The position numbers and the translations under genes were made by a program. From the NCBI GenBank assembly GCA_963700755.1, contig CAVOYW010000002.1, positions 46,968 through 110,967 of the forward strand: a stretch of 64,000 nucleotides of DNA, written 5' to 3'. This document shows, piece after piece, positions 19,019 through 60,880 of the stretch. The notes below the pieces were generated by a model. The model was given only the letters and a program-made list of their open reading frames with translations, had not been told where the DNA came from and did no database searches. Numbering within the stretch: the first letter of the stretch is position 1; each line of letters opens with the position of its first letter. Source of the DNA: an uncultured Acidimicrobiales bacterium. GTDB taxonomy: Bacteria > Actinomycetota > Acidimicrobiia > Acidimicrobiales > SZUA-35.

Positions 19019-19020
19019 GC

Positions 19021-34419: not shown

Positions 34420-34483
34420 GGGCCGATCCGTCGCCGACCCGGGCGATTGTCGACCATCACGGTCCTGACCTAGCGTTTCGGCC

Positions 34484-38058: not shown

Positions 38059-39012
38059 TCAGGCTCGGGGCGAGTGGTTGCGTTGGCGGAACTCGTGCAC
38101 GGACAGGGAACGAAGCGTGGTCGGCTCGCTGGCCCGGACGGTGGCGCTGCGGGGTTGGCCGAGCATCGGGGCCAACTCGCCGATGTATTCGCCGGGGCCT
38201 CGCTGGGTCAGGACCGTCTCGGTGCCGTCGATGGCTTCGCGTACCACGTCGAGGCGGCCCTGCTCGACCAGATAGACCCGACTCCCCGTCGATCCCTGGC
38301 GGAACAGGATGTCGCCCGACGCGAGCTCGACGCTCGTCTCGGTGGAGTCGTCGTCGAGCGATGGAACGAGATCGATGGAGGTGTCGGCGATGGGCATCAG
38401 CCGGTCGTCGTGGGTCGACACCACCACGGTGTGGCCGGCGGTTGCGATGTCGCGCAGCAGCGAGATGATGCCCTCGGCCTGGACGTAGTCGAGGTTGGCG
38501 GTCGGTTCGTCGGCCAGCAGGAGCGGGGCCCCGCTGGCCAGACCTCGGGCGATTGCCACCCGCTGTTGCTGCCCCCCGGAGAGGTGACTCGGCCGGTGAT
38601 GGGCTCGGTCGCCGAGGCCGACCTGGTCGAGCAGGTTGGCCGCTCGTTGGCGGGCGGCTCCGGCCGACGTTCCGGTGAGGCGGAGCGGCATGGCGATGTT
38701 GTCGAGCGCCGAGAGCGAGGGGATGAGGTTGAACGCCTGGAAGACGAAGCCCACCGAGTTGCGGCGGTGCGACAACAGGGAGCGGTCGTCGAGGCCGGCG
38801 ATGTCGGTGCCGTCGACCATGATCTGTCCGGCCGTCGGTCGGAGGATGCCTCCGAGGCACGACAGCAGCGTGGTCTTGCCGCACCCGGATGGGCCGAGCA
38901 ACAGCGCCAGATCGCCGTCGCCGATGGAGGCGTTCAACCCGTCCAGGGGGCGGATCGGATAGCCGTTCGAGGTGTATTCGACGACGAGATCGCGTATCTG
39001 CAGGTTCGGCAT
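38059..39012 (-). CDS. ABC transporter ATP-binding protein (MacB/LolD-type) with a C-terminal cyclic-nucleotide-binding domain
   Basis: Walker A is GPSGCGKTTL, the signature is LSGGQQQRVAIARGL, and Walker B is LLLADEPTANLD. The C-terminal segment GEYIGELAPMLGQPRSATVRA is a cNMP-binding phosphate-binding cassette. ATG at 39012 lies 1 nt after the upstream stop. Confidence 0.9.
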   Translation of the reverse strand: MPNLQIRDLVVEYTSNGYPIRPLDGLNASIGDGDLALLLGPSGCGKTTLLSCLGGILRPTAGQIMVDGTDIAGLDDRSLLSHRRNSVGFVFQAFNLIPSLSALDNIAMPLRLTGTSAGAARQRAANLLDQVGLGDRAHHRPSHLSGGQQQRVAIARGLASGAPLLLADEPTANLDYVQAEGIISLLRDIATAGHTVVVSTHDDRLMPIADTSIDLVPSLDDDSTETSVELASGDILFRQGSTGSRVYLVEQGRLDVVREAIDGTETVLTQRGPGEYIGELAPMLGQPRSATVRASEPTTLRSLSVHEFRQRNHSPRA

Positions 39013-39013
39013 G

Positions 39014-41965
39014 TCAGGCTCCCGGCCCACCGAAGGCTGCGGCAGGATCGGTTCGTAGCGTTCGTCTGATGGCGCCGTAGCTGGCGGCGGCGGCCACGAT
39101 CATCGACACCGCGACCAGGACGATCCGGTCGCCGAGGTCGAGGTAGACACGAAGCGGGAAGACCGGGGCGAGCAGGGTCTGGACGATCAGGGCGATGATC
39201 GATGCCACCAATCCGATGACCAGGGCCTGGGCGGCCACGCCGATCGAGATCGGGCGGGACGCAACGCCCATGGCTCGGAGGACGGCGATGTCGCGCAGTC
39301 GATCGAGCGTGGCCAGGAAGACGACGGCTCCGATGATGAGCGAGGCAACGACCGCGAGGAGGACCTGCACGAGCCGCATCGTGGCGATCGGTCGTTCGAT
39401 CGGTCCAAGGGCGTCCTCGGCCACCTCGGCCGGCTCGAGTGATCGCAGGGTGGGCGGAAGTTCGGGGAGCTGGTCGACCACCAGGGCCGAGAGCAATGGT
39501 TGACCCTCGACGACGAGGTCGCGAGCTGCGTCGAGCGGAACGAACACCAGGGGCATCCCGGCGAAGACGGTCGTTTCGGCGACGACGCCGGTGACGGTGG
39601 CGTCGAGCGGGCCGAGTCGAACCCGGTCACCGACGCCGAAGGTCGAGTCTTCGGACACCACGACCTCGGCGGCACCCTGGGCCTGGCGACCGTCGATCAA
39701 GGGGGGAGCGTCGTCGGGCAGGTCGGCGTGGCCGACGAGGATCACGTCGAGATCGTTTGCGCCCTCGGCATCGGCCAGGCGATAGCGAGCGATCAGGACC
39801 CGCCCGAGGGCGTCGGCGCCGACCGGACCGAGGTCGGCCAGTGCCGAGTCGGCGAACGTGGCGCTCGAGGTGAAGATGCCGTCGGCCCCGGCCGGGACGA
39901 TCCAGTGCGAGCCGCCGAAGGACGAAACGGCCACGGTCGGTTCCCGGTTGAGTTGGTTGACGACGCCGGTCATCAGGAGGAGGAGGGCGAGCACGACGCT
40001 GGTGGCGGCAACGGCGACGACGAATCGGCGGGCCCGGAGCCGGAGGTCGGCCCATGCGAGCGACAGCGATCCGATGAGGGCGGCACCGGGCGATCGGTCG
40101 GGGGCCGGGCCGGTGTCGGTCGGTCTCGGTCGTGATCGCCCGGCTTCGAGTGCGGCGATCAGTGTCGGGTCGCCAACCGGCGGTTCGGCGCCGGCGAGGA
40201 ACGCGTCGATCAGGGCGGCCGATTGGGTTGCGCCGAGGGCGATCACCTGGCGGACCTTGCCGAATTCCAGAACGCTGAACTCCGACAGGTTGAGGTGCAC
40301 ATGACAGTCCACCGACCCGAGCGCCTCGACCCGGCGGCTGGCCGAGGCCACGGTGGTCGAACGCATCAGGGTGTCGAGCGGGTTCGGCACCCGGTTGGAT
40401 CGCATGCCCGGGATCAGGCGCCGAGCCAGCAGTCGCGGCCCCGACATCACGCGGGGGAGCGGTTCGGTCTTGCGGCCGTGGGGCGGGGCGAGGTCGACCA
40501 CGATCATCGAGCCCTCCCCGGTGAGAGCCCGCGCCCCCTCGACGGGGATGGCGTCGAAGACGGCGCCATCGATGTGAACGTGACCGTCGATGTCGACCGG
40601 CGGGAACACACCGGGGATCGAGATACTGGCGTAGATCGCGTCGGCCATCGGCCCGGTGGTGTGATTCACCGATTCGCCGAGGGTGAGATCGGTGGTGGCA
40701 ATCGAGAGCGGGATCCAGGTGTCGGTGATGTCACGGTCGCCGCACGCCTGCTGAATGCGGCGCCAGGCTCGCCCACCGGCGATGACCGCCCCCACCGGGA
40801 GCGTGTAGTCGAGCAGTTTGCGCATCGACCAGTCGGTCTTCTCGTCGAGGCCGTCGACCGCTCCCAGTACTCCCAGCCAGGCGGCGACGATCGAGCCGCC
40901 GCTCACCCCGGCCACGGCATCGACGGCGATTCCCCGATCGGCGAGGGCCTGGATCGTGCCGACGGCTCCGGCCGATCGCACACCCCCGGCGCCGATGGCC
41001 ATCGTGAGTGGACGACCAACGGCATGGCGAGCGACGCGGTCGAGGTCGGACGGCGTCCGCCGCCGCAGGTGGAGATGCCGGTCGACCTGGCGGCGCACGA
41101 GCCACTCCCGCGTCAGGCGGGGCCGGTCGGCGTCGGCCGGATGTACCAGCACGAGCAGGCGGACCGCGTTCGCCGCTCGGGGCACCGATTCGAGCAGCTG
41201 CTGTTCGGCCTGGCCGATGTCGGGGCCGTCGGCGGTGTCGAGAACGAACACGAGCCGGTCGGCAACCTTGGCGATGGCCCGGTTCCACTCGGGCCGGGCC
41301 GGGTCGCCGAGCAGCGTCACGCCTCGACTCCCGGCCGTTTCGGTGTCTTCCCGTCGGTGTTCGAAGTCGTCGAGCCAGCCGAGGGTTCCGGCCGAGGCGG
41401 CCTGTTCGAGCTCGGGGTGATCGGTGGGATCGATCACGACGTGCTGCCCGATCGACGCCGCCGCGGCGGCCAGAGCGCGTGCCTCGCCCATCACGGTCGA
41501 GTCCAACGGAACGAAGGCCACGACCTCGGTCGGCCCGCCGAGGTCGTCGGCGCCTCGGGTCAGGACGGCGTGCATGATGGCCATGGCTACGTCGGGTTGT
41601 GCGGCCATGAGCGAGATCAGCCACTCCCGGTCGAGCACGGCCAGTTCGGTGCGGCGAGCGGCCCGCATTCGGGCCCGGCGCACCCCGACCTCGAGCAGGG
41701 CCGCTTCGCCGATCAGTTCGCCGGGCCCGTGGAGCCCGATTCGTTGTTCGACACCGTTGCCGTCGATCCGGCTGGCGTGGATCCGGCCCCGGACGACGAC
41801 CCAGGCCGAGTGGCCGGAGTCGCCCACTTCGCAGAGCAGTTCCCCGGCATCGAGCTCGTGGGTGGTCAAGGCCGAGAGGTCGGAATGCCGACCCGCGCCC
41901 GGCAGCGCCCGCTCGAGGGCATCACGCAACAGGGCATCGGGGTCGGCGTCGGGCATGCAGGTCAT
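39014..41965 (-). CDS. Fusion protein: cNMP-binding domain, patatin-like phospholipase (NTE-like) and MacB/FtsX-type ABC permease
   Basis: The N-terminal cNMP-binding segment is GELIGEAALL...RRARMRA. The patatin motifs are GAGGVRSAG (GxGxxG), GVSGGS (GxSxG) and IDGAVFD (the catalytic Asp). The C-terminus has one TM helix, a large loop and three TM helices, with an FtsX-type AVLRAMGVASRPI segment. Confidence 0.85.
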   Translation of the reverse strand: MTCMPDADPDALLRDALERALPGAGRHSDLSALTTHELDAGELLCEVGDSGHSAWVVVRGRIHASRIDGNGVEQRIGLHGPGELIGEAALLEVGVRRARMRAARRTELAVLDREWLISLMAAQPDVAMAIMHAVLTRGADDLGGPTEVVAFVPLDSTVMGEARALAAAAASIGQHVVIDPTDHPELEQAASAGTLGWLDDFEHRREDTETAGSRGVTLLGDPARPEWNRAIAKVADRLVFVLDTADGPDIGQAEQQLLESVPRAANAVRLLVLVHPADADRPRLTREWLVRRQVDRHLHLRRRTPSDLDRVARHAVGRPLTMAIGAGGVRSAGAVGTIQALADRGIAVDAVAGVSGGSIVAAWLGVLGAVDGLDEKTDWSMRKLLDYTLPVGAVIAGGRAWRRIQQACGDRDITDTWIPLSIATTDLTLGESVNHTTGPMADAIYASISIPGVFPPVDIDGHVHIDGAVFDAIPVEGARALTGEGSMIVVDLAPPHGRKTEPLPRVMSGPRLLARRLIPGMRSNRVPNPLDTLMRSTTVASASRRVEALGSVDCHVHLNLSEFSVLEFGKVRQVIALGATQSAALIDAFLAGAEPPVGDPTLIAALEAGRSRPRPTDTGPAPDRSPGAALIGSLSLAWADLRLRARRFVVAVAATSVVLALLLLMTGVVNQLNREPTVAVSSFGGSHWIVPAGADGIFTSSATFADSALADLGPVGADALGRVLIARYRLADAEGANDLDVILVGHADLPDDAPPLIDGRQAQGAAEVVVSEDSTFGVGDRVRLGPLDATVTGVVAETTVFAGMPLVFVPLDAARDLVVEGQPLLSALVVDQLPELPPTLRSLEPAEVAEDALGPIERPIATMRLVQVLLAVVASLIIGAVVFLATLDRLRDIAVLRAMGVASRPISIGVAAQALVIGLVASIIALIVQTLLAPVFPLRVYLDLGDRIVLVAVSMIVAAAASYGAIRRTLRTDPAAAFGGPGA

Positions 41966-42064
41966 GTCAATGTCCTGGTGAGCGTCATGTCAAGTCGTCG
42001 CAGAGCGCATGAGGTTCCTCGTCTCGCGGGCCCCTCTGTCGGTCCCGGTCTCACGGTAGGTGGC

Positions 42065-42085
42065 GCGCTGTCAGTGCGCTGTCAG
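42065..42085. promoter_or_regulatory. Direct repeat GCGCTGTCAG-T-GCGCTGTCAG with 11-bp phasing, in the divergent promoter region
   Basis: Read directly from the sequence. It lies 100 bp upstream of ATG 41965(-) and about 230 bp upstream of 42313(+). Confidence 0.35.
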
Positions 42086-42128
42086 ACCGGGAACGCGGGC
42101 CTTCGGCGGGGCCGCTCGGCGCCGGCGG

Positions 42129-42146
42129 CTGACAGCAGAGTGTCAG
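42129..42146. promoter_or_regulatory. Inverted repeat CTGACA-N6-TGTCAG
   Basis: Read directly from the sequence. It uses the same hexamer as the direct repeats at 42065-42085. Confidence 0.3.
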
Positions 42147-42312
42147 CGTCGTCCGTACCGTCTGCAGAACGGCGACAATCGGCGGTGACCCGATACGCCG
42201 GCCGACCCCGCCCGAGCAGCACGGACGCGTTGCAGACCGACTGCAGACGGCATTTCGTACGGTCGGACGAGAACGACGTGCAACACTGTTCGACAAGCCC
42301 TGGGGGGTGGCG

Positions 42313-45300
42313 ATGGAGGTCCGGGTTCTCGGCCCGCTGGAGGTGTCGATCGACGGCTCTTCAATCGCGGTCGGCGGGCCACGCCTGCGCCGTCTCCTGC
42401 TCTGCCTCGTCGGTGGTGACGGGTCGGTGCGGTCGATCGACACCCTGATCGACGCCGTGTGGCCCGAGGAGGAACCACCCGAGGGCGCTCGCCGCACGCT
42501 GATGTCGTACGTGTCGCGACTCCGGGGCGTGTTGGTCGACGGCGCGATCGAGCAGATGGGCGCCGGTTACCGGCTGCGCACCGAGCTGGTCTCGGTCGAT
42601 GCGAACCGCTTCGTCGAACTGGTCGACCGCGGTCGGCGGGCGGCCCGGTCGGGCAACGCCTCCGGCGCCGTGACGCTGTACGACGAGGGGCTGGCTCTCT
42701 GGCGGGGCGAACCCGCCGCCGAGTTCGCGGGCGAGCACTGGATCGAGCCGGAACGAGTGCGGCTCGACGAACTGAGGCTGGCCGCCCTCGAGGGCCGGTT
42801 CGAGGCCAAGCTCGCGCTCGATGCCCATGCCGAGGTCCTCGTCGACCTCGAGCAGGCCGACGCGGCTCACCCCGAGCGGGAACGACTGGCCTACCTGTAC
42901 ATGCTGGCGCTCTACCGCTGTGGGCGTCAGATCGAGGCACTCCGACACTTCCAGGCCGTCCGCACCCGATTGGCCGATCTCGGCCTGGAACCGGCCCCGG
43001 AGCTGCGCGACCTCGAACGACAGATCCTCGATCACGATGCGGTGCTCCTGAGCAGCGACCCGGAGCCCGGGACGTCGATCCGGGGCTACGAACTGGGCGA
43101 GCGCATCGGTGAAGGGTCGTTCGGCACGATCCATCGGGCGATCCAGCCATCGGTCGGACGTGAGGTGGCGATCAAGGTGATCCGGCCCGAATTCGCCAAC
43201 GACCCCGGTTCGTCCGCCGGTTCGAGACCGAGGCCCAGCTCGTCGCCCGCCTCGAACACCCGCACATCGTGCCGCTCTACGACTACTGGCGCGAGCCCGA
43301 CGGCGCCTACCTGGTGATGCGGCTGCTGCGCGGCGGCAACGCCGAGGAGAGACTGGTCGCCCGAGGTCCGCTGCCCCTGCCCGATGTCGTCACGATCATC
43401 GACCAGATCGGGGGTGCGCTGGCCGTCGCCCACGCTCGCGGGGTGATCCATCGAGACGTGAAGCCGGCCAACATCTTGTTCGACGACGACGACATCGCCT
43501 ATCTGGCCGACTTCGGGATCGCCGTGCGGGACGAACTCGACACCGCCGACGGGGAGCTGCATTCGGCGGGGTCGCCGCTCTACGCCAGCCCCGAACAGGT
43601 ACGGGGTGGCGAGATCACGGTCCGGTCCGACATCTACAGCCTCGGGATCGCCGCCTACGAGTTGCTGGCGGGGCGGACGGCGTTCTCGGCGGATTCGGTC
43701 CAGGCGCTGCTCGAGACGAAGCTTCGGGCCTCGGTTCCGAGTGTCCGCGTGGTTCGTCCCGATGTGCCGCCTGCGGTCGACGTGGTCATCGATCGGGCGA
43801 CTGCGGTCGATCCCGAGCGTCGGTTCCCCGACATGGGCGAGATGGTGTTGGCGTTCCGGGCGGCGGCCGCATCATCGGCCCAGGCGGTCATGACCGGGGA
43901 TCCGGGGCGAGCCCGGCTCGAGGAGCGACCGCGGGCGGCCGCCAGTCGCACGCTGGTGAACGTCGAGCTGGCCCGAGTCAATCCCTACAAGGGTCTGCGG
44001 GCGTTCCAGGAAGCCGACAGCCAGGACTTCCATGGGCGAGACGTGCTCATCGGCGAGCTGGTCGAGCGGGTCTCGGCCCATCGGCTCGTCGCCGTGGTCG
44101 GGGCCTCGGGCTCGGGCAAGTCGTCGGTCGTGCGGGCCGGCCTGCTCCCGGCGGTCGCCGATCGATCGTGGTTCGTGGTCACGATCCTGCCCGGCGCCCA
44201 CCCGTTGGAGGAGCTCGAAGCGGGCCTGCTCCGGGTGGCGTCCGACGAGGTGCCCGGGCTGTTGGAACAACTGCAGAGCGAGGACCGTGGCCTGATCCGG
44301 GCCGTGCGGCGGGTCCTGCCCCCCGACGACAGCGAACTGTTGCTGGTGATCGATCAGTTCGAGGAGGTCTTCACGGCGGCCGCGGCCGAGGAGCGGGATC
44401 GCTTCCTCGATGGCCTCGTCCAGGCCATCGACGACGACCGCTCGAGGATCCGGGTCGTCGCCACGATCCGGGCCGATTTCTACGACCGCCCGCTCCGTCA
44501 CCGTGGCTTCGGCGCCCTGTTGCAGGACGCCACCCTCAACGTGTTGCCGATGTCGGCCGAGGAGCTCACCGCGGCCATCGAGGCGCCGGCGACACGGCTC
44601 GGGTCCCGGTTCGAGCCGGGACTGGTCGACATGATCGTCGCCGATGTCGGTGAGAACGCCGGGATGTTGCCGTTGCTGCAATACGCGCTGACCGAGCTCT
44701 ACGACCGTCGGATCGGCGACGAGATGACGCTGGCCGGTTACCGCGACATCGGCGGCGTCACCGGTGCCTTGGCCCGCCGGGCCGAGGAGCTGTTTTCGGA
44801 TCTCCACGAGCACGATCAGGCCGGCGCCCGGAGACTGTTCACCCGTCTGGTCACCCCGGGTGAGGGTGTCGAGGACACCCGCCGCCGAGCCCTTCGTTCC
44901 GAACTGACCGTCGTGTCCGACGAGATCATCGATTCGTTCGGTGCCCACCGGCTGCTGTCGTTCGACCGTGATCCGGCCACCCGGGCACCGACGGTCGAGG
45001 TGGCGCACGAGGCGTTGATCCGGGAGTGGGGCCGGTTGCGTCACTGGGTCGACGAGGACCGTCAGGGCCTCCGTACGTTGCGACATCTCACGGCGTCGAC
45101 GAAAGGCTGGATCGACGCCGATCGTGACCCGGCCGAGCTCTATCGCGGCGGCCGTCTCGACGCGGCCGCGGAGTGGGCTGACCAGCATCGCAACGACCTG
45201 GCCCCCGACGAGGTCGAGTTCCTCGAGGCCAGCCGGTCGTTGCGTGAGGTCGAACTGCGGGAGCAGGCCGAGCGGGCGGCGCTCCGCGAGCGGCAGAACC

Positions 45301-47616
45301 AGCGGCTCCGGCGGAGCCTCGTCGGGGTCGGGGTGTTGGCGATCATGGCCCTGCTGGCCGGCGGATTCGCCTTCCAGCAGTGGGGCAGCGCGGGCGCTCG
45401 GGCCGACGAGGCGGCCGAGGCCCGTGCCGCGGCCGAGACCAGGCGTCTGATCTCCGATGCCGGACAGTTGGCGCCCACCAATCGGCGCGTGGCGCTGCTG
45501 CTCGCTGCCGAGGGGTACCGGCGTGACCCCGGCCCAGCCGCCCTCGGTGGGCTGCAAGCGGTGCTCACCGACTCGACCGAGTTCCTCGGATTCCTGGCCG
45601 GCGACATCTCGTTCAACGACATCGCCTGGACCGGCAACGGCGATCTCGTCGGCACCCACTCGACCGGGGTGACATTGCTGTCGCCCGAAGGGGAACGGCT
45701 CCTCGAGATCCCGTTCTCGGGCGCACGGTTGCTGGCGGTGAGCAGCGACGACACCCTCGTCGCCGTGTCCGGACGCGACTCGACGGTGCGGGTCTTCGAC
45801 CTCCGCACCGGCGAACCGGCAACGGAGCCGCTGGTGCACGGTGCGGCGGTCACCAGCATGGCGTTCAGCGACACCGGAGGCCGGTTCGCCACCGGGGACT
45901 GGGCCGGCGACGTGCGGGTCTTCGACGACCGTTTCGAGCTGGTCCAGCAGATCGCCGCCCATCACGACGCCGGGCTCGAGCTGGATCCCGACAATCTACC
46001 GGAGGGGGTCGAACCACCGTTGGCCCACGACCCGCGGAGCTTCAATCTCGGTGTCGTCGATGTCGCGCTCGACATCGGATGGGCGCACGGTGGCGTCGGT
46101 CGGCGGTCAGGTCGTTCGCGCCTGGGATGTCGAGACGCTCGATCTGCTCGTCGATCGGCCACTGAGCCGGCTCACGGCTGATGGCGGGGAGGTCGCCATC
46201 GCTCCGACCGCGGTCGGATTCCTCGATGTCGATGGACGCGAGGTGATCGGCGCCGCCTCGTTGGCCTCGGTCCAGTTGGTGTCGCCCGATTCCGGCGAGC
46301 CGATCGATCGCTGGCCATTCGCCGGTGGGACACCAGGATTCCTTCGTGTCGAGACCACGACCAGCGTGGCCTTCGGTTCGGACATGGTGGCAACGCTGAG
46401 CGCCGATGGGCGAGTGCGGACCGCAGCGCCGGAACCCGATGACGCGACGATCTTCGACAGTCAGCTGACCGGTGAGCTGTCGCTCGACCTCGACGAGGAA
46501 CGAGGAAGGATCGTGGTGGCGGGGCCGGAGGGGGCCATGCGGTTGTCGCTCAACGGCGCCGGACTGATCTCGCGTTCGGTGCCCACAGGAGGGCTCTACG
46601 AGTTCTTCGTCTCCAACGACGGCCAGACCGTCCTCGGCTCCACGGTCGACGAACTCCCCTCGACGATGTGGCGGCTGGTCGGCGACGAGTACCGGGTCGC
46701 GCCGATCAGCGGTCCGACCGTGCACTTCGCCTTCACCGGGATGCCTGGCGGTCTGGGGATCGATCTCTCGACACTCATGATGCAGGAACGGGATCCGGTC
46801 ACCTTCGAGCCGTTCGGACCGGTCTACGGTCCCCACCGGACGTCGGAGGTCCTGACCTCGCCCGATGGGCGGTGGCTGGCGCTCTCGGTCGACCCTCCGG
46901 GTGACGTCGTCGGAGCACGGGTGTACGAGCGTTCGACCGGCGAGGTCGCCGCCGATCTGGACGAGGTCCTCGTCGACCCGAAGGACGCCATCCGGTCTCT
47001 CGGGTTCAGCCCCGACAGCAACCGAATGGTGGTCACGTCCATGGCAGGGGCAGCCCGGGTTTATGACACGGCGACGTGGAAGCCACTGGAACCCATGCTC
47101 AGCGGGGGAGGAGGAGCGGTGGTCGGAGCGGCCTTCACCCCCGACGGGAAGCACCTGGTGACCGCATCGATCGACGGGACCATCACCGTGCGAGACCCCG
47201 CAACGTTCCAACCCGACGGTCTGGCGATGCTCGGAAACACCGGTGCGGTCGAGGGGCAGGCCGTCGGGTCCCTTTTCAGTCCGGACGGCCACTGGATGGT
47301 GACGACCATGGACGGCGAGGCCAGGCTCTGGGACCTCGCCCAGCGTGTCGTGGTCGGAAGGCCGTTTCCGCACAACGGTGAGGCCAACCCCATGGCATCG
47401 GCCAACGCCCGCTACGTCCTGACCCACCTGGATGGGCGGACGGTCGTGTGGGAACTCGATCTCGATCGATGGCCGGAGATCGCCTGCCGGGCCGCCGGCC
47501 GGAACCTGACGATCGCCGAATGGGAGCAGTACGGCCCGGCCGGCGAGCCCTACATCGCGACGTGCCCGCAGTGGCCGTCACCGGACCAGATCGACGACAA
47601 CGGAGGTGCATCATGA
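42313..47616 (+). pseudogene. Giant SARP(BTAD)-Ser/Thr kinase-nSTAND-type P-loop NTPase-TM-WD40/beta-propeller protein, interrupted by two 1-nt frameshifts (about 43209 and about 46072)
   Basis: The N-terminus MEVRVLGPLEV...BTAD (LALYRCGRQIEALRHFQ) is SARP-type. The kinase starts at GEGSFGTIHRA...VAIKV in frame 1 and continues as FVRRFETEAQL...HRDVKPANIL...DFGIA in the frame of ORF 43269. The NTPase segment is NPYKGLRAFQEADSQDFHGRD...VVGASGSGKSS. The TM helix is LVGVGVLAIMALLAGGFAF. The WD-like blades continue after 46072 in the frame of ORF 45841 (SDGRTVASVGGQVVRAWDV). Confidence 0.85.
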
Positions 47617-48266
47617 CCGAGGAACAACACATCGAGGTGCAGGTCACTCGGCGGGCGGCGTTGAAACGCCTCGTGTTCGGCAGCGGCCTCGTGGTCGCCG
47701 GTGCCGTGGCCGGCGGGACCGCCGCTGCGGCCAGCACCGGGGGCGGAGGCTGGAAGCGTCAGAGCATCACGTTCGACGTGGCCTGTCTGGGTGAGACCTG
47801 GCGGGACTCCCCGGCCAACTGGGCCGCCGACGAAAGTGACTTCAGGGGGATTCCGTTCGCCGTCGAGGGCTGGATCTACCCCGAGAACCACATCCCGACG
47901 CCGGGCGATGGGTTCATCCCCACCCAGGACGGTTCGATCGGTCGCTGGCTGTGCCGGGGCAGCGTGCTCGTGCACGCCGAGCGACTCGAACCGCATGTGC
48001 AGACGACCCAGGAGTTCATCTTCGGGACCATGCTCGGTGACGATCTCTTCCCCGACGACACCATCACGACCGCCGGGAACGAAGGCACGTTCGAGACCCA
48101 TCAACTGGCCCGCCGGTCGGTCACCGGCGGAACGGGCATCTACATGGGGGCGACGGGTGAGGAGTTCCAGGACTGGAACGGGTTCAACACGTCGCTCAAC
48201 ACCGACGGAACCGGCAATGCCGCGAACTTCCGGATGCGGTTCGACCTGCTCTTGCCGGATCTGTGA
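47613..48266 (+). CDS. Tat-signal secreted hypothetical protein (217 aa)
   Basis: ATG at 47613 overlaps the upstream stop as ATGA and follows GGAGG. The twin-arginine leader is VTRRAALKRLVFGSGLVVAGAVAGGTAAAAS. The mature part has a GGTGIYMGATGE motif reminiscent of dirigent/allene-oxide-cyclase-like barrels, a resemblance I recall from memory. Confidence 0.75.
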   Translation: MTEEQHIEVQVTRRAALKRLVFGSGLVVAGAVAGGTAAAASTGGGGWKRQSITFDVACLGETWRDSPANWAADESDFRGIPFAVEGWIYPENHIPTPGDGFIPTQDGSIGRWLCRGSVLVHAERLEPHVQTTQEFIFGTMLGDDLFPDDTITTAGNEGTFETHQLARRSVTGGTGIYMGATGEEFQDWNGFNTSLNTDGTGNAANFRMRFDLLLPDL

Positions 48267-49849
48267 TGACCGGCGTGGCCGCACCCCCGCTCGACGCTCG
48301 ACCGCAGTTGCGGCTCGGTCGGTCGTCGTATCCGGTGGTGTTGCCGCGCCTGACCGACACCCGGCTCCACGTGGCGTCGGTCATCGTGTCGCTCCACGTC
48401 CTGGGCCAGCTCGTGCTGGGATTCCGGGTCTCGGTACCCCAGATCCTGGCCGCGATCTTGAGCTGCGCCCTGGCCGAGATGATCATCGCGTTCCGTCGGG
48501 AGCGAAGCATCGTGTGGCCGGCCAGCGCCATGCTGACCGGCAGCGGTGTCGGTCTGATCCTGCGTGACGCGTCGACCGAGGCCGGCGAGCACTGGACGTT
48601 TCGCCATTGGTGGCTGTTCGCCGGGATCGCCCTGTTCTCGCTGGCCACCAAGTACGCCATTCGCTGGCGCGGGTCCCACGTCTTCAACCCGTCGAACCTC
48701 GGCCTGGTCGTCGCCTTCATCGTCCTGGGGAGCGACCGGATCGAACCCCTCGACTTCTGGTGGGGACCGTTCAGCGTCTGGATGTTGCTGGCCTACTGGC
48801 TGATCGTTTCCGGCGGTGTTCTCGTGACCGAACGCCTCGGCCTGCTCGAGCTGGCCGGCGCCTTCTGGACCACGTTTGCACTCTGCATGGCAGCACTGTC
48901 GGCGTCGGGGCACTGCATCACGGCTCCGTGGTCGGCCTCGGCGGTGTGCGGCGGCCGATTCTGGTGGACCATCGTGACGTCACCCGAGCTCCTGGTCTTC
49001 GTGTTCTTCATGATCACCGACCCGCGCACCGTGCCGTCGAGTCGGGTCGGACGTGTCGCCTTCGGCATCGGCGTCGCCGTGGTCAGTTCGCTCCTGATCG
49101 CACCGCAGACCACCGAGTTCGGGGCCAAGGTGGGTCTCCTCGGAGGGCTGGTCGTGATGTGCGCCATCCCCCCGGTCATGCAGGTACTCGGCGTGCCGTC
49201 GGCCTGGGAACGGTCACGGCTGCGCACCGCCGGCGACCGGCACCTCATCGTCCGATCGTTCGCCGGAGTTGTCGTGCTCGGTCTCGTCCTGCCCGCCGTC
49301 GCCGCGGCCGGGGCCCCGGCCCGGTCGGCCGTCTCGGCCGCGGTGATCGAACCGCGGCCCGATCCCCGTGAGTACGTCTTCGATGTCGACGAAGCCCGCC
49401 TCGGCGTCATCACCGTCGATCCCGAGGTCGAGGTCCTCGACCCCGACCTGGTCGGACCCGGATCCCGGCTCGCTGCCATCGAACTGCTCCGCGGCCTCGA
49501 TGTCGAAGTCCTCGCCTTCGAACGTGGCGACGCCACCGTGTTGAGTGCCGTCGACCACGGCGGTCGACTCGTCGAGATGCGAGATCGATTGGCCCGGTAC
49601 CAGCCGGGTGACACGATCCCGAGCGACCACCGTTTCGACACCATGGAGCTCTCCGTCGTTCGGAGCCGAGGGCAGGGTGGGCTCCGGCTCGCCATCACCG
49701 GACGGGGTAGCATCGAGGAACGGGTTCTCGACGAGAGCGGTGGCATCCTCGCTCGGCATCGGGCCGGGTTCTCCGCCCAATTCGTCCTGAGGGCGGGCGA
49801 CGATGGACGATGGTTCATCGTCGAAGAACGCGCACAGGAAGATGGATGA
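48263..49849 (+). CDS. Polytopic membrane protein (RnfD/NqrB-like or UnbU-like core) with a soluble C-terminal domain
   Basis: The start overlaps the upstream stop (GTGATG). There are about 8 TM helices, with HVFNPSNLGL and FFMITDPRTVP motifs that resemble the RnfD/NqrB family (from memory). The C-terminal 170 aa are soluble. Confidence 0.8.
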   Translation: MMTGVAAPPLDARPQLRLGRSSYPVVLPRLTDTRLHVASVIVSLHVLGQLVLGFRVSVPQILAAILSCALAEMIIAFRRERSIVWPASAMLTGSGVGLILRDASTEAGEHWTFRHWWLFAGIALFSLATKYAIRWRGSHVFNPSNLGLVVAFIVLGSDRIEPLDFWWGPFSVWMLLAYWLIVSGGVLVTERLGLLELAGAFWTTFALCMAALSASGHCITAPWSASAVCGGRFWWTIVTSPELLVFVFFMITDPRTVPSSRVGRVAFGIGVAVVSSLLIAPQTTEFGAKVGLLGGLVVMCAIPPVMQVLGVPSAWERSRLRTAGDRHLIVRSFAGVVVLGLVLPAVAAAGAPARSAVSAAVIEPRPDPREYVFDVDEARLGVITVDPEVEVLDPDLVGPGSRLAAIELLRGLDVEVLAFERGDATVLSAVDHGGRLVEMRDRLARYQPGDTIPSDHRFDTMELSVVRSRGQGGLRLAITGRGSIEERVLDESGGILARHRAGFSAQFVLRAGDDGRWFIVEERAQEDG

Positions 49850-49853
49850 TCCG

Positions 49854-50906
49854 ATGAAGGAGGGTGGCGCCGTGGAATCCAGGACGAACGACGAACTCGT
49901 CGATGGGCGTGGCTCGCCCCGGCCTCGGCAACCAGCACCGACTACGCCGGCGCCGATGCCGATCGCCCGGCCGGCCGTCGTGGTTCGTTCGCCCGGCCGG
50001 ACACCGCTCCATCTCATGGTGACCGAACCGATCGAGATCGGACGCGAATGCGCCGGACTCCTCCTGGATGACCCGTTGATCTCTCGTCGCCACCTCGAGG
50101 TCCGCGCCGACGGAGACCGGGTCGTCGTGACCGATCTCGGGAGCACCAACGGCACCACGATCAGCGGCCGTCCGCTGACGGGGTCCAGTGTGATCGGGGT
50201 GGCCGACACCGTGAACTTCGGCGATTCGACCATCCACCTCGTCGTCGACGTCAAGGCCACCATGGCACCGGGACTGGTGAAGCCATCGTCGTCGGTGCCG
50301 GTGGACCTGCGGCGGACCTCGATCGACATCGTGGCCGAGGCCTACTCCGTCGATCGGCCCGCCGTCGACGAGGTGCCGGTCTCGCACGGAACGACCACCA
50401 TCGTGTTCAGCGACATCGAATCGTCGACAGCACGAGCCGAGGAGCTCGGGGACCAACGCTGGTTCGAGCTGCTGTCCACCCACAACGACGTGGTGCGTCG
50501 CCGGGTCGAATCCTTCCACGGCAAGGAGATCAAGGCCCAGGGCGACGGGTTCATGTTGTCGTTCCCGTCGGCCCGCGGTGCCGTGCAGTGCATGCTCGCC
50601 GTGCAACAGGACCTCGACGAACACAACCGTCGTCACCCCGATCGCCCCATCCGGGTCCGGGTCGGGATCCACACCGGCGAGGCCATCGTCGACGGCGACG
50701 GTGACCTGTTCGGAAAGCACGTGATCCTGGCGGCCCGGATCGCCAACGAGGCCGTCGGCGGTGAGATCCTCGTGTCGTCGCTGGTGCGCCAGATCATCGA
50801 AGCCCACGGCGACATGGAATTCGGTGAGGGCCGGGTCACTCAGCTGAAGGGGCTCGCCGGGACCTACACCGTGTTCCCGATCCTCCGCCGCTCGACCGAA
50901 AGCTGA
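49854..50906 (+). CDS. FHA domain-containing class III adenylate/guanylate cyclase
   Basis: The FHA segment is IEIGRECAGLLLDDPLISRRHLEV...VTDLGSTNGTTISG. The cyclase segment is TIVFSDIESSTARAE...KAQGDGFMLSF...VRVGIHTGEAI...FGKHVILAARI. The start is ambiguous: ATG at 49803, 49842 or 49854. Confidence 0.85.
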   Translation: MKEGGAVESRTNDELVDGRGSPRPRQPAPTTPAPMPIARPAVVVRSPGRTPLHLMVTEPIEIGRECAGLLLDDPLISRRHLEVRADGDRVVVTDLGSTNGTTISGRPLTGSSVIGVADTVNFGDSTIHLVVDVKATMAPGLVKPSSSVPVDLRRTSIDIVAEAYSVDRPAVDEVPVSHGTTTIVFSDIESSTARAEELGDQRWFELLSTHNDVVRRRVESFHGKEIKAQGDGFMLSFPSARGAVQCMLAVQQDLDEHNRRHPDRPIRVRVGIHTGEAIVDGDGDLFGKHVILAARIANEAVGGEILVSSLVRQIIEAHGDMEFGEGRVTQLKGLAGTYTVFPILRRSTES

Positions 50907-50936: not shown

Positions 50937-51977
50937 TCAGGAGCCGGTCGTCGCCGGAAGCTCGACCCGCGGATCGACCACGACCACGTGCCATTCCCGC
51001 AGGGAGATCGGACCCCAGCGCAGGATCTTCCGGCCGCCGATGCGCACGACCCAGCGCAGTTGCGTCTTCGCCCCGCTGAAGCTCGGTGCTGCGTCGATCG
51101 GGACCTCGAAGGTGGCGACACCCGAGTCGTCGAAGCGCAGCTGGTGCTGGTACGCCTCGAAGGTCTCGAATTGGCCGGCGGTCACCCGCCCACCGCGCGC
51201 CTCGAACGACCTGCGGTTCGCGCCCGTCACCAGCCCGCCCGCAGAAGGGATCCCCGACGTGTAGATTCCCATGTAGCTCTCGACCCCCAAAAAGACGACG
51301 GGCCGCAGTCGACCGCCCACGTGTCGAACGGTGACCCGATCGCCCGGGCGGACCACGGTCGGCTCGACGACGAGATCCGGCGATCGCGGTGTTCGGGGCC
51401 ACACCGTGCGGAGCGCCAGGAAAGCGGCCGCGAGCGGAACGATCGAGACCACGAGGGCTCCGATCGGAAGCGCAGTCGGAGGCGGGTTCTCCACGTCGGC
51501 CATCAGGGCGTAGAGGCCGAAGGCGGCGAACATGGCGAAGAACGACAGTCCCATGAAGATCGAGAGGACGTGCTCGCCGATGAGGCTTCGAAGCCTCGGG
51601 GGGCGTCCTCCGGCCGTCGCCAGGATCTCGGGGCTCGGGCCCGGCGGATGCGAATTGTCGATCTCGATCGGGGCGGACTGTTCGCCGACGAGCGCGGCGG
51701 CCTTGCCTCTGGTCACCACGACCCAGGTGATGCCGACCCGCTTGGCCTTCTGCGTCGGCAGGGCATCGTCGGGCACCTGGATCTGGAATCGACCGGTGGC
51801 CGAGTCGGACGTCGTGCGTCCGTACGGAACGCCTGTGACCGGGAGCGTGACCGTGCCGTTGGATTCGCGGCGTTCCAGCCAGACATCCACCGAGCGCGGG
51901 TCGCCGTCGTCGTCGACGATCGATCCGTTGACGAAATCGCCGGCCCGTACATGCGTCGTATCGAGTTCGATGGCCAT
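50937..51977 (-). CDS. Hypothetical membrane protein (two central TM helices between two beta-rich halves)
   Basis: ATG at 51977 follows GGAGGG. The TM helices are VLSIFMGLSFFAMFAAFGLYAL and IGALVVSIVPLAAAFLAL. I recognise no family. Confidence 0.7.
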   Translation of the reverse strand: MAIELDTTHVRAGDFVNGSIVDDDGDPRSVDVWLERRESNGTVTLPVTGVPYGRTTSDSATGRFQIQVPDDALPTQKAKRVGITWVVVTRGKAAALVGEQSAPIEIDNSHPPGPSPEILATAGGRPPRLRSLIGEHVLSIFMGLSFFAMFAAFGLYALMADVENPPPTALPIGALVVSIVPLAAAFLALRTVWPRTPRSPDLVVEPTVVRPGDRVTVRHVGGRLRPVVFLGVESYMGIYTSGIPSAGGLVTGANRRSFEARGGRVTAGQFETFEAYQHQLRFDDSGVATFEVPIDAAPSFSGAKTQLRWVVRIGGRKILRWGPISLREWHVVVVDPRVELPATTGS

Positions 51978-52041
51978 CGGTTCCCTCCAAGGCTCGACGA
52001 ACCGTAGCCGCGGTGACCCGACGCGAGCTTGGGCGAGCGGG

Positions 52042-60089: not shown

Positions 60090-60767
60090 TCAGATGGGAA
60101 CGTCGCCGCCGGCGATGTCTTCGAGGAGCCCGGTGTCGACGATGGTGATCCGTCCTCGGCCCGTCGCGATCGCCCCGGCCCGTCGCAACAGCGCCAGCGA
60201 CCGTGCGGCCGCCTCACGGGTGGCGCCCACCCATGCCGCGACCTCGTCCTGGGTGACGGGCACCTCGATCGATGTCCCGTTCCCATGCCGTTCGAACTTG
60301 GTGCCCAACTCGACGAGGAGATTGGCCACCCGTTGGTTGGAGGTCTCGGCCGATCGGGCGGAGAGCCGTATGTTGGCCCGCATGAGGTGCGAGACCAGTT
60401 CCCGCAGGACGACGAGGGCCAGATCCGACTCGCCGTCGAGCGCATCGAGGAAGGCCGGGCCGGGGAGGCAGTGGACCACGGTCGGTTCCATCGCCTGCGC
60501 AGTCGCGGATCGCACCGATCGGGAGATGGCCGAGAGTTCACCGAATCCCTCGACCGGGGTCTTCGTGCCCAGGATGACCTCTCGGCCGTTCGGCGAGGTG
60601 ACGAACAGGTTGATGCGGCCCTTCGTGCAGGCATAGACGGTCGACGACCGTTCGCCCTGCAAGAAGAGCGTCTCGCCGGCGTCGAGATGCTGCGGTTCAC
60701 CGCGGTGGGTGACGAACGCACCCAGCGCCATTCGGTGCTCGGCACCGGGCGGTGGCGGGCGATTCAC
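60090..60767 (-). CDS. Crp/Fnr-family transcriptional regulator
   Basis: It has a cNMP-binding fold (GFGELSAISRSVRSATAQA) and a C-terminal HTH (TQDEVAAWVGATREAAARSLALLRRAG). ATG 60731 is an alternative start. Confidence 0.85.
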   Translation of the reverse strand: MNRPPPPGAEHRMALGAFVTHRGEPQHLDAGETLFLQGERSSTVYACTKGRINLFVTSPNGREVILGTKTPVEGFGELSAISRSVRSATAQAMEPTVVHCLPGPAFLDALDGESDLALVVLRELVSHLMRANIRLSARSAETSNQRVANLLVELGTKFERHGNGTSIEVPVTQDEVAAWVGATREAAARSLALLRRAGAIATGRGRITIVDTGLLEDIAGGDVPI

Positions 60768-60880
60768 GAGATTCCTTCGTGCCGTGTGATGGCCGTCATG
60801 GAAGAGCCCTCCTCATCGGCGCAGAGTGATCGTAGCGCTCGCAACCGATGCGGGTGGGAGGATCAGGACAGGGGAGTCCA

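What the first reader, a model, noticed from the sequence alone, without database searches (positions are those of the whole stretch)
38059..50906. A self-contained kinase, FHA-cyclase and cNMP-effector neighbourhood in two divergent operons
Two gene strings diverge from the 347-bp region 41966-42312.
- Leftward lie the cNMP-patatin-FtsX fusion and the ABC ATPase-cNMP gene. Together they provide three cNMP receptor domains if the Crp gene at 60090 is also counted.
- Rightward lie four tightly coupled genes. These are a SARP-Ser/Thr kinase-STAND-WD40 protein, a Tat-secreted protein (ATGA overlap), a polytopic membrane protein (GTGATG overlap), and an FHA-domain class III adenylate cyclase whose start lies 4 nt after the previous stop.

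FHA domains bind phospho-threonine. A parsimonious wiring follows. The extracytoplasmic WD40 or secreted components would sense a signal and activate the kinase. The kinase would control the FHA-cyclase through phosphorylation. The resulting cAMP would gate the lipase-ABC machine. Meanwhile the SARP DNA-binding domain would act on the shared promoter region. Every link is inferred from domain logic and gene adjacency only.
Basis: inference. Interest (0 to 1): 0.7.

Follow-up and report, generated by a model that had tools for sequence, protein, structure and literature searches.

The report
Kinase, cyclase and cAMP-gated lipase cluster
A receptor kinase, a phospho-threonine-reading adenylate cyclase and a rare cAMP-sensing lipase/ABC machine stay next to each other in related Acidimicrobiia although their order is reshuffled, and they share regulator-type promoter boxes, so they probably form one signalling pathway, but the kinase gene in this genome carries two frameshifts.

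Summary
The kinase gene is split into three frames by two single-base indels, at 43204-43208 and at 46071.

Comparison with related loci now supports the proposed link between the genes.
- The kinase (K), FHA-cyclase (C), cNMP-patatin-FtsX protein (P) and ABC-cNMP protein (A) are neighbours in three different gene orders. These are A<-P<-|->K->T->R->C (window, L097), K->T->R->C->P->A (L007) and U<-C<-|->K->P->A (L096, L095).
- Stop and start codons overlap as ATGA at C/P and at K/P.
- Two kinds of AfsR-like tandem 11-bp repeat box sit 4-5 bp upstream of -10-like hexamers in front of these operons. Both kinds lie in the window's 347-bp divergent region.
- The catalytic and ligand-binding residues are intact.

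The order of signalling steps is still inferred. K may be inactive here, although it shows purifying selection (dN/dS about 0.1). The P-A promoter also carries a different box type from K's own promoter. I rate this a new variant of known signalling kinds, of moderate interest.

The parts
38059..39012 (-). A: an ABC ATPase with a C-terminal cyclic-nucleotide-binding domain, 317 aa from the ATG at 39012.
   Evidence: Pfam finds ABC_tran and cNMP_binding. The phosphate-binding cassette GELA..PRSATV is canonical. The start lies 1 nt after the P stop. A follows P directly in all 7 loci examined.
39014..41965 (-). P: a 983-aa fusion of a cNMP-binding domain, an NTE P-loop-like domain, a patatin lipase, a MacB-type periplasmic domain and an FtsX permease.
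   Evidence: Pfam finds all five domains. Transmembrane helix 1 is at residues 648-666 and three more lie at 868-962. The family conserves GE..R.A, G.GG.Rs, G.S.G and DG. Only about 17 full-length members were found among 5.8 billion proteins.
42053..42084 (-). Box 2 promoter facing P-A: TGACAGC-N4-TGACAGC at 42084-42067, followed by a -10-like TACCGT at 42058-42053.
   Evidence: The match is exact and is the only exact one in the 64-kb window. The same box with the same 4-bp gap to a TAnnnT hexamer lies upstream of the K-P-A and C-U operons in L096 and L095.
42130..42161 (+). Second box 2 copy facing right, with 1 mismatch (TGACAGCAGAGTGTCAGC), followed by a -10-like TACCGT at 42156-42161. 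It forms a divergent double box with the copy at 42084.
   Evidence: The two boxes start 46 bp apart, against 45 bp in L096 and 46 bp in L095. The sequence also reads as an inverted repeat (I14), so its role is less certain.
42231..42263 (+). Box 1 promoter of the K operon: TGCAGAC-N4-TGCAGAC at 42231-42248, followed by a -10-like TACGGT at 42258-42263.
   Evidence: This is the only match in the window. Only 4 matches with at most 1 mismatch occur in 1.69 Mb of loci, and all lie just upstream of K in K-T-R-C clusters: window, L097, L003 and L007.
42313..47616 (+). K: a protein of about 1767 aa with SARP (Trans_reg_C plus BTAD), a Ser/Thr kinase, an nSTAND1 NTPase, one transmembrane helix and WD40 propellers. 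The reading frame is broken at 43204-43208 (1 nt missing) and at 46071 (1 nt extra).
   Evidence: Pfam finds the domains. The gene is colinear with the intact L003 gene, and the indels are pinned down. The transmembrane helix lies at about residues 1002-1020. The motifs GxGxxG, VAIK, HRD, DFG and SPE and the Walker A and B motifs are visible in the translation. dN/dS against L097 is 0.10-0.12.
47613..48266 (+). T: a 217-aa Tat-signal protein with a dirigent/allene-oxide-cyclase-like eight-stranded barrel.
   Evidence: It has a TRRAALK motif and a hydrophobic region. The AlphaFold model has pLDDT 87. Foldseek matches dirigent, allene oxide cyclase and Diels-Alderase barrels at E 1e-6, with a target-normalised TM-score of 0.65-0.7. 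In 12 loci it always lies directly after a WD40 3' end.
48263..49849 (+). R: a 528-aa polytopic membrane protein with an RnfD/NqrB-like core and a C-terminal NTF2-like domain.
   Evidence: Pfam scores it at 31 bits. The model has pLDDT 82, and Foldseek matches RnfD with a target-normalised TM-score of 0.57. The family is large and is mostly found without the other partners.
49854..50906 (+). C: an FHA domain joined to a class III adenylate cyclase of the Ma1120 type, 350 aa.
   Evidence: Pfam finds both domains. The best solved relative is Ma1120, at E 2e-41. The family conserves FSDIE, K.QGDGFM, DLFG and R...LKG, and the FHA motifs GR, SRxH and NG.
60090..60812 (-). A Crp-type regulator with cNMP_binding and HTH_Crp_2. 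It is a peripheral cAMP receptor 9 kb away.
   Evidence: Pfam finds both domains. No evidence of conserved linkage to the cluster was obtained.

Best explanation
This is one copy of a signalling gene cluster conserved in a clade of Acidimicrobiia related to Ilumatobacteraceae.

**Parts that are shown**
- K is a single-pass membrane receptor. Its cytoplasmic part has a SARP DNA-binding module, a Hanks-type Ser/Thr kinase and an nSTAND1 NTPase. About 745 aa of WD40 propellers lie outside the membrane. A Tat-exported small-molecule-binding barrel (T) often accompanies it.
- C is a soluble Ma1120-type adenylate cyclase that carries a competent phospho-threonine-binding FHA domain.
- P and A together form a MacB/FtsX-type ABC machine. 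The permease carries a cytoplasmic cNMP-binding domain and a patatin lipase. The ATPase carries its own cNMP-binding domain.
- All of these operons are preceded by AfsR-like tandem 11-bp repeat boxes.

**Mechanism that is inferred**
1. An extracytoplasmic cue, sensed by the WD40 part with T, switches on the STAND module and the kinase.
2. Phospho-threonines on K, or on the conserved R-T-S-I-D linker of C, recruit or de-repress C through its FHA domain. Class III cyclases must dimerise to be active.
3. The cAMP produced binds both cNMP-binding domains and turns on lipid hydrolysis coupled to ABC-driven movement in the envelope.
4. The SARP module activates the box-bearing promoters, giving feedback.

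**In this genome**
K is interrupted twice. Either the consensus sequence is wrong at two bases, or K was inactivated very recently. In the second case a 336-aa stand-alone SARP product would remain, and C would depend on another kinase.
For: **Domains and motifs**
- Domain calls.
- Cyclase residues: one search aligns K, D and R with Ma1120 K101, D157 and R168. PMC4215837 shows that Ma1120 is an active adenylate cyclase although it lacks the canonical Asn, as this family does.
- FHA and cyclase family conservation. P family motifs. Membrane topology.

**Linkage**
- L003 has K-T-R-C with an intact 1766-aa K.
- L007 has all six genes on one strand, with ATGA overlaps at C/P and P/A.
- L096 has U<-C<-|->K->P->A, with an ATGA overlap at K/P.
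- L095 has the same order and lies on the same 1.47-Mb contig as L003.
- L097 is syntenic with the window at 87% nucleotide identity.
- L005 and L006 have C next to K without T or R.
- Background: none of 75 unrelated loci had an nSTAND1, FHA or patatin hit.

**Promoter boxes**
- Each box type is unique in the window.
- Box 1 matches only 4 times in 1.69 Mb, always upstream of K. Box 2 lies upstream of the K-P-A, C-U and window P-A operons.
- The geometry of two 11-bp direct repeats overlapping the -35 region matches the AfsR afs box (PMC10936776).

**Selection**
- dN/dS between the window and L097 is 0.10-0.12 for K, 0.15 for P and 0.06 for A.
- The window's K has fewer private amino-acid changes than L097's K, 30 against 57.
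Against: - There is no expression, phosphorylation, cAMP or lipase data of any kind.
- K has two frameshifts, while about 45 other genes in the window give full-length family matches. If sequencing errors were spread evenly, both falling in K would be unlikely, at about 1%.
- The P-A promoter has box 2, not K's own box 1. L097 has lost box 2.
- Distant P-A pairs (L098, L099) lack K and C within 10 kb.
- One close cyclase homologue (L004, 63% identity) sits among flagellar genes with no K.
- Several loci come from error-prone long-read assemblies, so some gene states there are uncertain.
- Only about 10 independent loci were seen, from a few lineages.
Confidence: 0.6

Rival explanations
1. It is a STAND-based conflict or abortive-infection system. 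The nSTAND1 protein senses an invader or envelope damage. The cyclase makes a nucleotide second messenger, and the cNMP-gated patatin lipase with its ABC partner destroys the membrane. The logic would resemble CBASS CapV or Pycsar.
For: - nSTAND1 was defined in predicted counter-invader systems, where kinase and FHA domains occur among the associated modules (PMC8195603).
- The cNMP-binding domains and the cyclase give weak, domain-level hits to Pycsar effector and PycC models.
- One genome has several paralogous clusters (L003 and L095).
- The gene order is reshuffled between relatives, and the WD40 part evolves fastest (dN/dS 0.25).
- K genes are often interrupted.
Against: - No PADLOC system-specific model matches. 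All hits are to generic kinase, ABC or cNMP-binding domains.
- The sensor repeats are predicted to lie outside the membrane.
- The cyclase has the ATP-specifying K/D pair of Ma1120.
- K carries a transcription-factor module with cognate promoter boxes.
- The neighbours are ordinary metabolic genes, with uniform G+C and no mobile-element genes seen.
- The P-A pair occurs alone in other Acidimicrobiia.
Confidence: 0.15
2. In this genome the kinase is a real, recently formed pseudogene and the pathway is rewired. A truncated stand-alone SARP (residues 1-297 plus an out-of-frame tail) may still activate box 1. C would be controlled by another Ser/Thr kinase, and P-A by a box-2-type paralogue elsewhere in the genome.
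For: - Both frameshifts lie in one gene, while about 45 other genes look intact.
- The second indel is not in a homopolymer.
- Frameshift 1 falls after the complete BTAD domain, between VAIK and helix C of the kinase, so all kinase activity would be lost.
- P-A carries box 2, whose cognate K type is absent from the window.
Against: - dN/dS of about 0.1 in all three frame pieces and no excess of private substitutions allow only a very recent inactivation.
- Frameshift 1 is a C5-to-C4 homopolymer change, a classic consensus error.
- Related long-read assemblies show frameshifts in K at other positions.
- No reads spanning the two sites could be found.
Confidence: 0.4
3. The adjacency has no functional meaning. 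Signalling genes are abundant in Actinomycetota and simply happen to lie together here.
For: - Kinases, cyclases and cNMP-binding proteins are common gene families.
- Some homologues occur without the partners (L004, L098, L099).
Against: - The same four partners recur in three different orders, with overlapping stop and start codons.
- Shared box motifs are found nowhere else in 1.69 Mb.
- The background frequency of nSTAND1, FHA and patatin hits was zero in 75 control loci.
Confidence: 0.05

Closest known systems
AfsK-AfsR of Streptomyces coelicolor
   Same: - AfsR combines a SARP module with a STAND NTPase and a repeat sensor.
- A Ser/Thr kinase with a beta-propeller C-terminus (AfsK) phosphorylates it.
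- AfsR binds a 22-bp box of two 11-bp direct repeats that overlaps the -35 region (PMC10936776).
- The boxes found here have the same 11-bp periodicity and lie 4-5 bp from a -10-like hexamer.
   Different: - Here the SARP module, kinase, NTPase and propeller are fused in one membrane-spanning polypeptide.
- The NTPase is nSTAND1, not NB-ARC. The repeats are WD40 and predicted to be extracytoplasmic.
- The target operons encode a cyclase and cNMP effectors rather than afsS.
PknH-EmbR of Mycobacterium tuberculosis (from established knowledge; not tested here)
   Same: It uses the same three modules: a receptor Ser/Thr kinase, a SARP regulator and an FHA domain that docks on phospho-threonine.
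   Different: In EmbR the FHA domain is fused to the SARP module. Here the SARP module is fused to the kinase and the FHA domain is fused to an adenylate cyclase, so the output would be cAMP as well as transcription.
Ma1120 (Rv1120c-type) class III adenylate cyclase
   Same: - It is the best solved relative (E 2e-41).
- Both have the K/D ATP-specifying pair and the conserved Arg, and both lack the canonical Asn (PMC4215837).
- The segment just before the catalytic domain also aligns (R-T-S-I-D here, R-S-S-I-E in Ma1120).
   Different: The protein here has an N-terminal FHA domain. It has Ile where Ma1120 has Ala164. Its activity is untested.
Bacterial NTE-like cNMP-patatin proteins, including the MFS-cNMP-patatin fusions
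   Same: They share the cNMP_binding, NTE_Ploop and Patatin core. Weaker hits have this core alone or fused to MFS transporters.
   Different: Here the core is fused to a MacB_PCD/FtsX permease and paired with an ABC ATPase that has its own cNMP-binding domain. Only about 17 full-length examples were found.
MacB / FtsEX / LolCDE type ABC systems
   Same: The permease has four transmembrane helices with a large loop between helices 1 and 2 (MacB_PCD), and the ATPase is a separate, translationally coupled gene.
   Different: A 645-aa cytoplasmic sensor-lipase precedes the permease, and both subunits carry cNMP-binding domains. No MacA- or TolC-like partner was seen.
CBASS CapV and Pycsar effectors
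   Same: The logic is the same: a nucleotide cyclase together with a cyclic-nucleotide-gated lipase or other effector.
   Different: Only domain-level similarity was found in PADLOC. The cyclase is a canonical class III K/D enzyme, and the sensor is a membrane receptor kinase with a transcription-factor module.

Membership tests
SARP (OmpR-type winged helix plus BTAD) | A Trans_reg_C DNA-binding domain followed by a BTAD domain. | tested here: met
   BTAD at E 2e-39, covering profile positions 1-146 of 146, and Trans_reg_C at E 6e-7. Both lie upstream of frameshift 1.
SARP (OmpR-type winged helix plus BTAD) | Target promoters carry tandem direct repeats with 11-bp periodicity next to the -10 element. 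| tested here: met
   Searches found boxes 1 and 2, conserved in position across 6 loci. Binding itself is not testable with these tools.
Hanks-type Ser/Thr protein kinase | One continuous catalytic domain with a Gly-rich loop, VAIK Lys, HRD, DFG and APE/SPE. | tested here: inconclusive
   All motifs are present. However, frameshift 1 at 43204-43208 separates VAIK from the rest of the domain. Whether the frameshift is real could not be settled.
nSTAND1 NTPase | A full-length match to the nSTAND1 model, with Walker A and Walker B motifs. | tested here: met
   E 1e-119, covering profile positions 1-378 of 379. GASGSGKS and LLLVIDQFEE are seen in the translation.
FHA domain | The conserved phospho-threonine-binding residues Gly-Arg, Ser-x-x-His and Asn-Gly. 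| tested here: met
   E 3e-12. GR, SRrH and StNG are conserved in at least 90% of 121 family members.
Class III adenylate cyclase | Two metal-binding Asp residues, the Lys/Asp substrate-specifying pair and a transition-state Arg (with Asn in the canonical set). | tested here: met
   FSDIE, K.QGDG, DLFG and R...LKG are conserved. The Asn position is Ile, comparable to Ala164 in the active enzyme Ma1120. Enzyme activity is not testable here.
Cyclic-nucleotide-binding (CAP/PKA-type) domain | A phosphate-binding cassette with Gly-Glu and Arg-x-Ala. | tested here: met
   One search finds the domain in P, A and Crp. A has GELA..PRSAT. The P family keeps GE..R.A invariant. Specificity for cAMP over cGMP was not tested.
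Patatin-like phospholipase | An oxyanion-hole GGxR motif, the GxSxG nucleophile and the DG Asp of the catalytic dyad. | tested here: met
   E 4e-21. G.GG.Rs, G.S.G and DG are conserved in 14 family members.
MacB/FtsX-type ABC transporter | A permease with four transmembrane helices and an extracytoplasmic domain between helices 1 and 2, with an adjacent ABC ATPase. | tested here: met
   One search finds MacB_PCD and FtsX. One search finds helices at 648-666, 868-886, 910-928 and 944-962. One search shows the adjacent ATPase gene.
Rnf/Nqr redox complex (RnfD/NqrB subunit) | The gene is encoded together with the other Rnf or Nqr subunits. | tested here: not met
   No other Rnf or Nqr subunit lies in the window cluster or in 80 related loci. 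Only the membrane core resembles RnfD. R should not be filed as Rnf or Nqr.
Tat-exported protein | An N-terminal S/T-R-R-x-F-L-K-like motif followed by a hydrophobic stretch. | tested here: met
   T-R-R-A-A-L-K plus a hydrophobic region is present. The RR pair is invariant in 4 orthologues, and the first of the two Arg (R13) is conserved in at least 90% of 37 family members. Export itself is not testable.
Dirigent / allene oxide cyclase barrel | Sequence-family membership and an eight-stranded barrel fold. | tested here: inconclusive
   The fold matches (E 1e-6, target-normalised TM-score 0.65-0.7, 13-17% identity), but no Pfam family hits the protein. This is a resemblance in fold only.
CBASS / Pycsar defence systems | A match to system-specific cyclase and effector models. 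| tested here: not met
   only weak domain-level hits (PycC at E 5e-6, Pycsar effector cNMP-binding region at E 3e-11). No system model matched.

The most novel reading that the evidence does not exclude
The cluster could be a bacterial NLR-like (STAND) danger or envelope-damage response that uses ordinary cAMP as its alarm signal. A receptor kinase-STAND protein would switch on an FHA-cyclase by phospho-threonine docking. The cAMP produced would directly gate a membrane-embedded patatin lipase/ABC machine. This would be a kinase-relayed, cAMP-based counterpart of CBASS or Pycsar, with built-in SARP transcriptional feedback.
Probability: 0.15. Interest if true: 0.8.

Novelty: new variant of a known kind. 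Interest (0 to 1): 0.58.

Why it matters
- Ser/Thr-kinase/FHA signalling and cAMP signalling are both well studied in Actinomycetota, but I found no description of a conserved cluster that joins them. Three literature searches for these combinations returned nothing relevant.
- The cluster offers a defined, testable route from a receptor kinase to a second messenger and then to a physical effector.
- It gives a candidate function to two rare architectures: the SARP-kinase-nSTAND1-WD40 receptor and the cNMP-patatin-FtsX permease.
- Both subunits of the ABC machine carry a cyclic-nucleotide sensor, which is unusual for an ABC system.
- It supplies two concrete SARP operator motifs outside Streptomyces that can be tested by gel shift.

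Tried and rejected
- **Exact look-up of the window's own proteins.** Both look-ups failed, so the source contig's gene calls and sequencing technology remain unknown.
- **The RnfD-like protein as anchor for the one genome-wide scan.** This was too broad. The family has more than 2700 members, and 75 of the 80 loci returned carry none of the partners. No conserved upstream Tat gene was found in them either. These loci were reused as a background set.
- **The swarm of 1-2-nt indels in L097's WD40 region.** I first read it as pseudogene decay. I rejected that because the swarm lies within 2.2 kb of the contig end and the L097 Tat gene stays open, so it is probably a polishing artefact.
- **Sequencing runs.** Only three sediment metagenomes hold 5-12% of the sampled words. 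Their contigs do not span either frameshift site at 99% identity or better, so the frameshifts could not be checked.
- **PADLOC.** It gave only generic domain hits.
- **Literature.** Searches for patatin with cNMP and FtsX, and for FHA-cyclases, found nothing relevant.
- **Programmed frameshifting.** I considered and rejected it because the intact orthologues L003, L007 and L096 are in frame at both sites.


Full report
**1. What is in the sequence**

The region has about 69% G+C, with no compositional break. On the minus strand lie two genes.
- A is an ABC ATPase with a C-terminal cyclic-nucleotide-binding domain.
- P is a 983-aa fusion of a cNMP-binding domain, an NTE P-loop-like domain, a patatin lipase, a MacB periplasmic domain and an FtsX permease.

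On the plus strand, after a 347-bp gap, lie four genes.
- K has a SARP module, a Ser/Thr kinase, an nSTAND1 NTPase and WD40 repeats.
- T is a 217-aa protein with a TRRAALK twin-arginine signal.
- R is a 528-aa RnfD-like membrane protein.
- C is an FHA domain joined to a class III cyclase.

K/T overlap as ATGA, T/R form GTGATG, and C starts 4 nt after the stop of R. A most likely starts at the ATG at 39012, 1 nt after the stop of P, as in every homologue. A Crp-type cNMP regulator lies at 60090-60812.

**2. The kinase gene is interrupted**

An intact 1766-aa orthologue (L003) aligns colinearly with three different frames of the window.
- One base is missing at 43204-43208. The window reads GACCCCGG, where L007 has CCGCGG and the restored reading would be N-D-P-R-F-V-R-R-F.
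- One base is extra at 46071, in CGAC[A]TCGG. This is not a homopolymer.

Frameshift 1 falls after the complete SARP module and between the VAIK lysine and the rest of the kinase. If it is real, kinase activity is lost and a 336-aa SARP-only product remains.

About 45 other genes in the window give full-length family matches. Two randomly placed consensus errors would both land in K with a probability of about 1%.

Other evidence points the opposite way.
- dN/dS between the window and its 87%-identical relative L097 is 0.10-0.12 for each frame piece of K. It is 0.15 for P and 0.06 for A.
- The window's K has fewer private amino-acid changes than L097's K, 30 against 57.

Any inactivation must therefore be very recent. 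Public runs hold only fragments of this organism, and none spans the two sites. The question stays open.

**3. Is the neighbourhood conserved?**

It is, within a clade, and the gene order is reshuffled between members.
- L003 (cyclase 79% identical): K->T->R->C, with an FG-GAP gene upstream instead of P-A.
- L095 lies about 12 kb away on the same 1.47-Mb contig as L003. It holds a second set: U<-C<-|->K->..->P->A, followed by another cNMP protein. U is a Usp-cNMP protein.
- L096 (GCA_038212405.1): U<-C<-|->K(1796 aa)->P->A, with an ATGA overlap at K/P.
- L007 (an Ilumatobacteraceae MAG): all six genes on one strand, K->T->R->C->P->A, with ATGA overlaps at C/P and at P/A.
- L097 together with L001 has the window's arrangement.
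- L005 and L006 have C next to K without T or R.
- L004 has C among flagellar genes with no K.
- Distant P homologues at 41% identity keep the P->A pair but have no K or C within 10 kb. These are Actinospongicola halichondriae (L098) and L099.

The P fusion is rare. About 17 full-length members were found among 5.8 billion proteins.

T always lies directly after the 3' end of an nSTAND1-WD40 gene, in all 8 metagenome loci and 4 genome loci that carry it. Its family is small, with 197 representatives. R belongs to a very large family that is mostly found alone.

For background, 75 unrelated loci totalling about 1.3 Mb contained no nSTAND1, FHA or patatin hit. Retention of the same partners through three rearrangements, with overlapping stop and start codons, is the classical signature of a functional link.

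**4. Shared cis elements**

The divergent region holds two kinds of tandem heptamer repeated with 11-bp periodicity.
- Box 1 is TGCAGAC-N4-TGCAGAC at 42231-42248. A TACGGT hexamer lies 5 bp after the 22-bp unit. Box 1 matches only four times in 1.69 Mb of collected sequence, each time just upstream of K in a K-T-R-C cluster (window, L097, L003, L007). In every case a TAnnnT hexamer follows at the same distance.
- Box 2 is TGACAGC-N4-TGACAGC at 42084-42067 on the minus strand, followed by TACCGT. It faces P-A.
- In L096 and L095, box 2 occurs as a divergent pair 45-46 bp apart, driving C-U on one side and K-P-A on the other. The window keeps the same pair 46 bp apart, with the second copy at 42130-42147 carrying one mismatch.

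Two 11-bp direct repeats overlapping the -35 position is the architecture of the AfsR afs box (PMC10936776). This supports SARP-mediated control of all the operons.

There is a complication. K proteins behind box 1 and K proteins behind box 2 share only 34-36% identity in their SARP modules. The window contains only the box 1 type of K, yet its P-A promoter carries box 2.

**5. Are the parts competent?**

- The closest solved relative of the cyclase is Ma1120 (E 2e-41). The family conserves both metal-binding Asp residues, the Lys/Asp ATP-specifying pair and the Arg.
- The canonical Asn is absent, as it is in Ma1120, which is nevertheless an active adenylate cyclase (PMC4215837).
- A conserved R-T-S-I-D segment between the FHA domain and the catalytic domain aligns with the N-terminal segment of Ma1120.
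- The FHA domain keeps its GR, SRxH and NG residues.
- The P family keeps the cNMP-binding GE..R.A motif and the patatin GGxR, GxSxG and DG motifs. A has a canonical phosphate-binding cassette.
- K has one transmembrane helix after nSTAND1, preceded by RLRRS, so the WD40 part is predicted to lie outside the membrane. P has the MacB four-helix topology.
- T models with pLDDT 87 as an eight-stranded barrel. It resembles dirigent proteins, allene oxide cyclases and Diels-Alderases, all of which bind small hydrophobic molecules.
- R has an RnfD-like membrane core and an NTF2-like C-terminal domain. No Rnf or Nqr partner subunits are present.

**6. Mechanism**

The following is shown:
- the domain content, the intact motifs and the membrane topology;
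- the conserved linkage and the translational coupling;
- the conserved SARP-type boxes.

The following is inferred:
1. An extracytoplasmic cue is sensed by the WD40 part, with T as a possible ligand-binding partner.
2. The STAND module and the kinase are activated.
3. The FHA domain recruits or de-represses the cyclase by docking on phospho-threonine.
4. cAMP binds the cNMP-binding domains of P and A.
5. Lipid hydrolysis is coupled to ABC-driven movement in the envelope.
6. The SARP module gives transcriptional feedback through boxes 1 and 2.

**7. Rivals**

- A STAND-based defence system with a cAMP-gated lytic lipase is not excluded, because nSTAND1 comes from predicted conflict systems. 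Several features count against it:
  - the absence of PADLOC system hits;
  - the extracytoplasmic sensor;
  - the K/D-type cyclase;
  - the transcription-factor module;
  - the ordinary metabolic neighbours.
- Chance adjacency is contradicted by sections 3 and 4.
- A genuinely dead K in this genome remains plausible (section 2).

**8. Comparison and novelty**

The nearest systems are these.
- AfsK-AfsR, which has a SARP-STAND regulator, a propeller-bearing Ser/Thr kinase and 11-bp direct-repeat boxes.
- PknH-EmbR, which combines a kinase, a SARP module and an FHA domain.
- Ma1120-type cyclases.
- NTE-like cNMP-patatin proteins.
- MacB/FtsEX ABC systems.

Three things are new here:
- the fusion of SARP, kinase, STAND and propeller in one membrane receptor;
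- the placement of the FHA domain on a cyclase;
- the cNMP-gated lipase-ABC effector, conserved as part of one cluster.

Literature searches found no description of this combination. I rate it a new variant of known kinds, of moderate interest.

Noticed in passing
L097:1-2200 (corresponds to window 46100-48300): About 30 one- or two-base indels relative to the window are packed into the last 2.2 kb before the end of the L097 contig. The other 17 kb of the alignment has almost none. This is probably a contig-end polishing artefact of a long-read assembly, but strain heterogeneity in the WD40 sensor region is not excluded.
   Followed up: partly
L095:2412-3269 and L096:406-1263: A 285-aa protein with a universal stress protein domain and a cNMP-binding domain is co-transcribed with the FHA-cyclase in the box 2 type of cluster. 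It is a further candidate cAMP effector. tblastn found no copy in the window.
   Followed up: partly
window 48263-49849 and loci L008-L086: The RnfD-like protein belongs to a very large family of about 520 aa, about 50% identical across Actinomycetota and Chloroflexota. Its strongly conserved motifs include FMITDP[KR]T and WPASAMLT, and it has an NTF2-like C-terminal domain. It almost always occurs without Rnf or Nqr partners. Its function is unknown.
   Followed up: partly
window 50937-52130 (-): A 397-aa ORF with two or three hydrophobic helices and no Pfam match lies convergent to the cyclase. A 346-aa counterpart sits in the same position in L001 and L002.
   Followed up: no
window 34469-34969 (+): A 167-aa ORF matches only the C-terminal half (profile positions 188-345 of 347) of glycine/sarcosine/betaine reductase component B. 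L097 has the same short gene (162 aa), so it is probably a natural short form and not a break.
   Followed up: no
window 17560-20448 (+): A 963-aa stop-to-stop frame combines a xylose-isomerase-like TIM barrel (residues 163-333) with a complete FGGY sugar kinase (residues 491-919). This is either a fusion or two genes in the same frame. A large HSP70-like ORF lies convergent to it at 15105-17726.
   Followed up: no
L002:1-1075: A second contig from the same sample as L001 carries the identical cyclase. Its Tat protein and RnfD-like genes are frameshifted, and the RnfD-like gene has an internal deletion. This is either a decayed second copy or strain, or assembly noise.
   Followed up: no
L089:~4700-4760: A more distant K gene (about 40% identical) from a metagenome contig is preceded by TTGACAGGTCC-TTGAAAGGTCG and then TAGCAAT. 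This is a box-2-like tandem repeat, which suggests the operator type is older than the cluster seen here.
   Followed up: no
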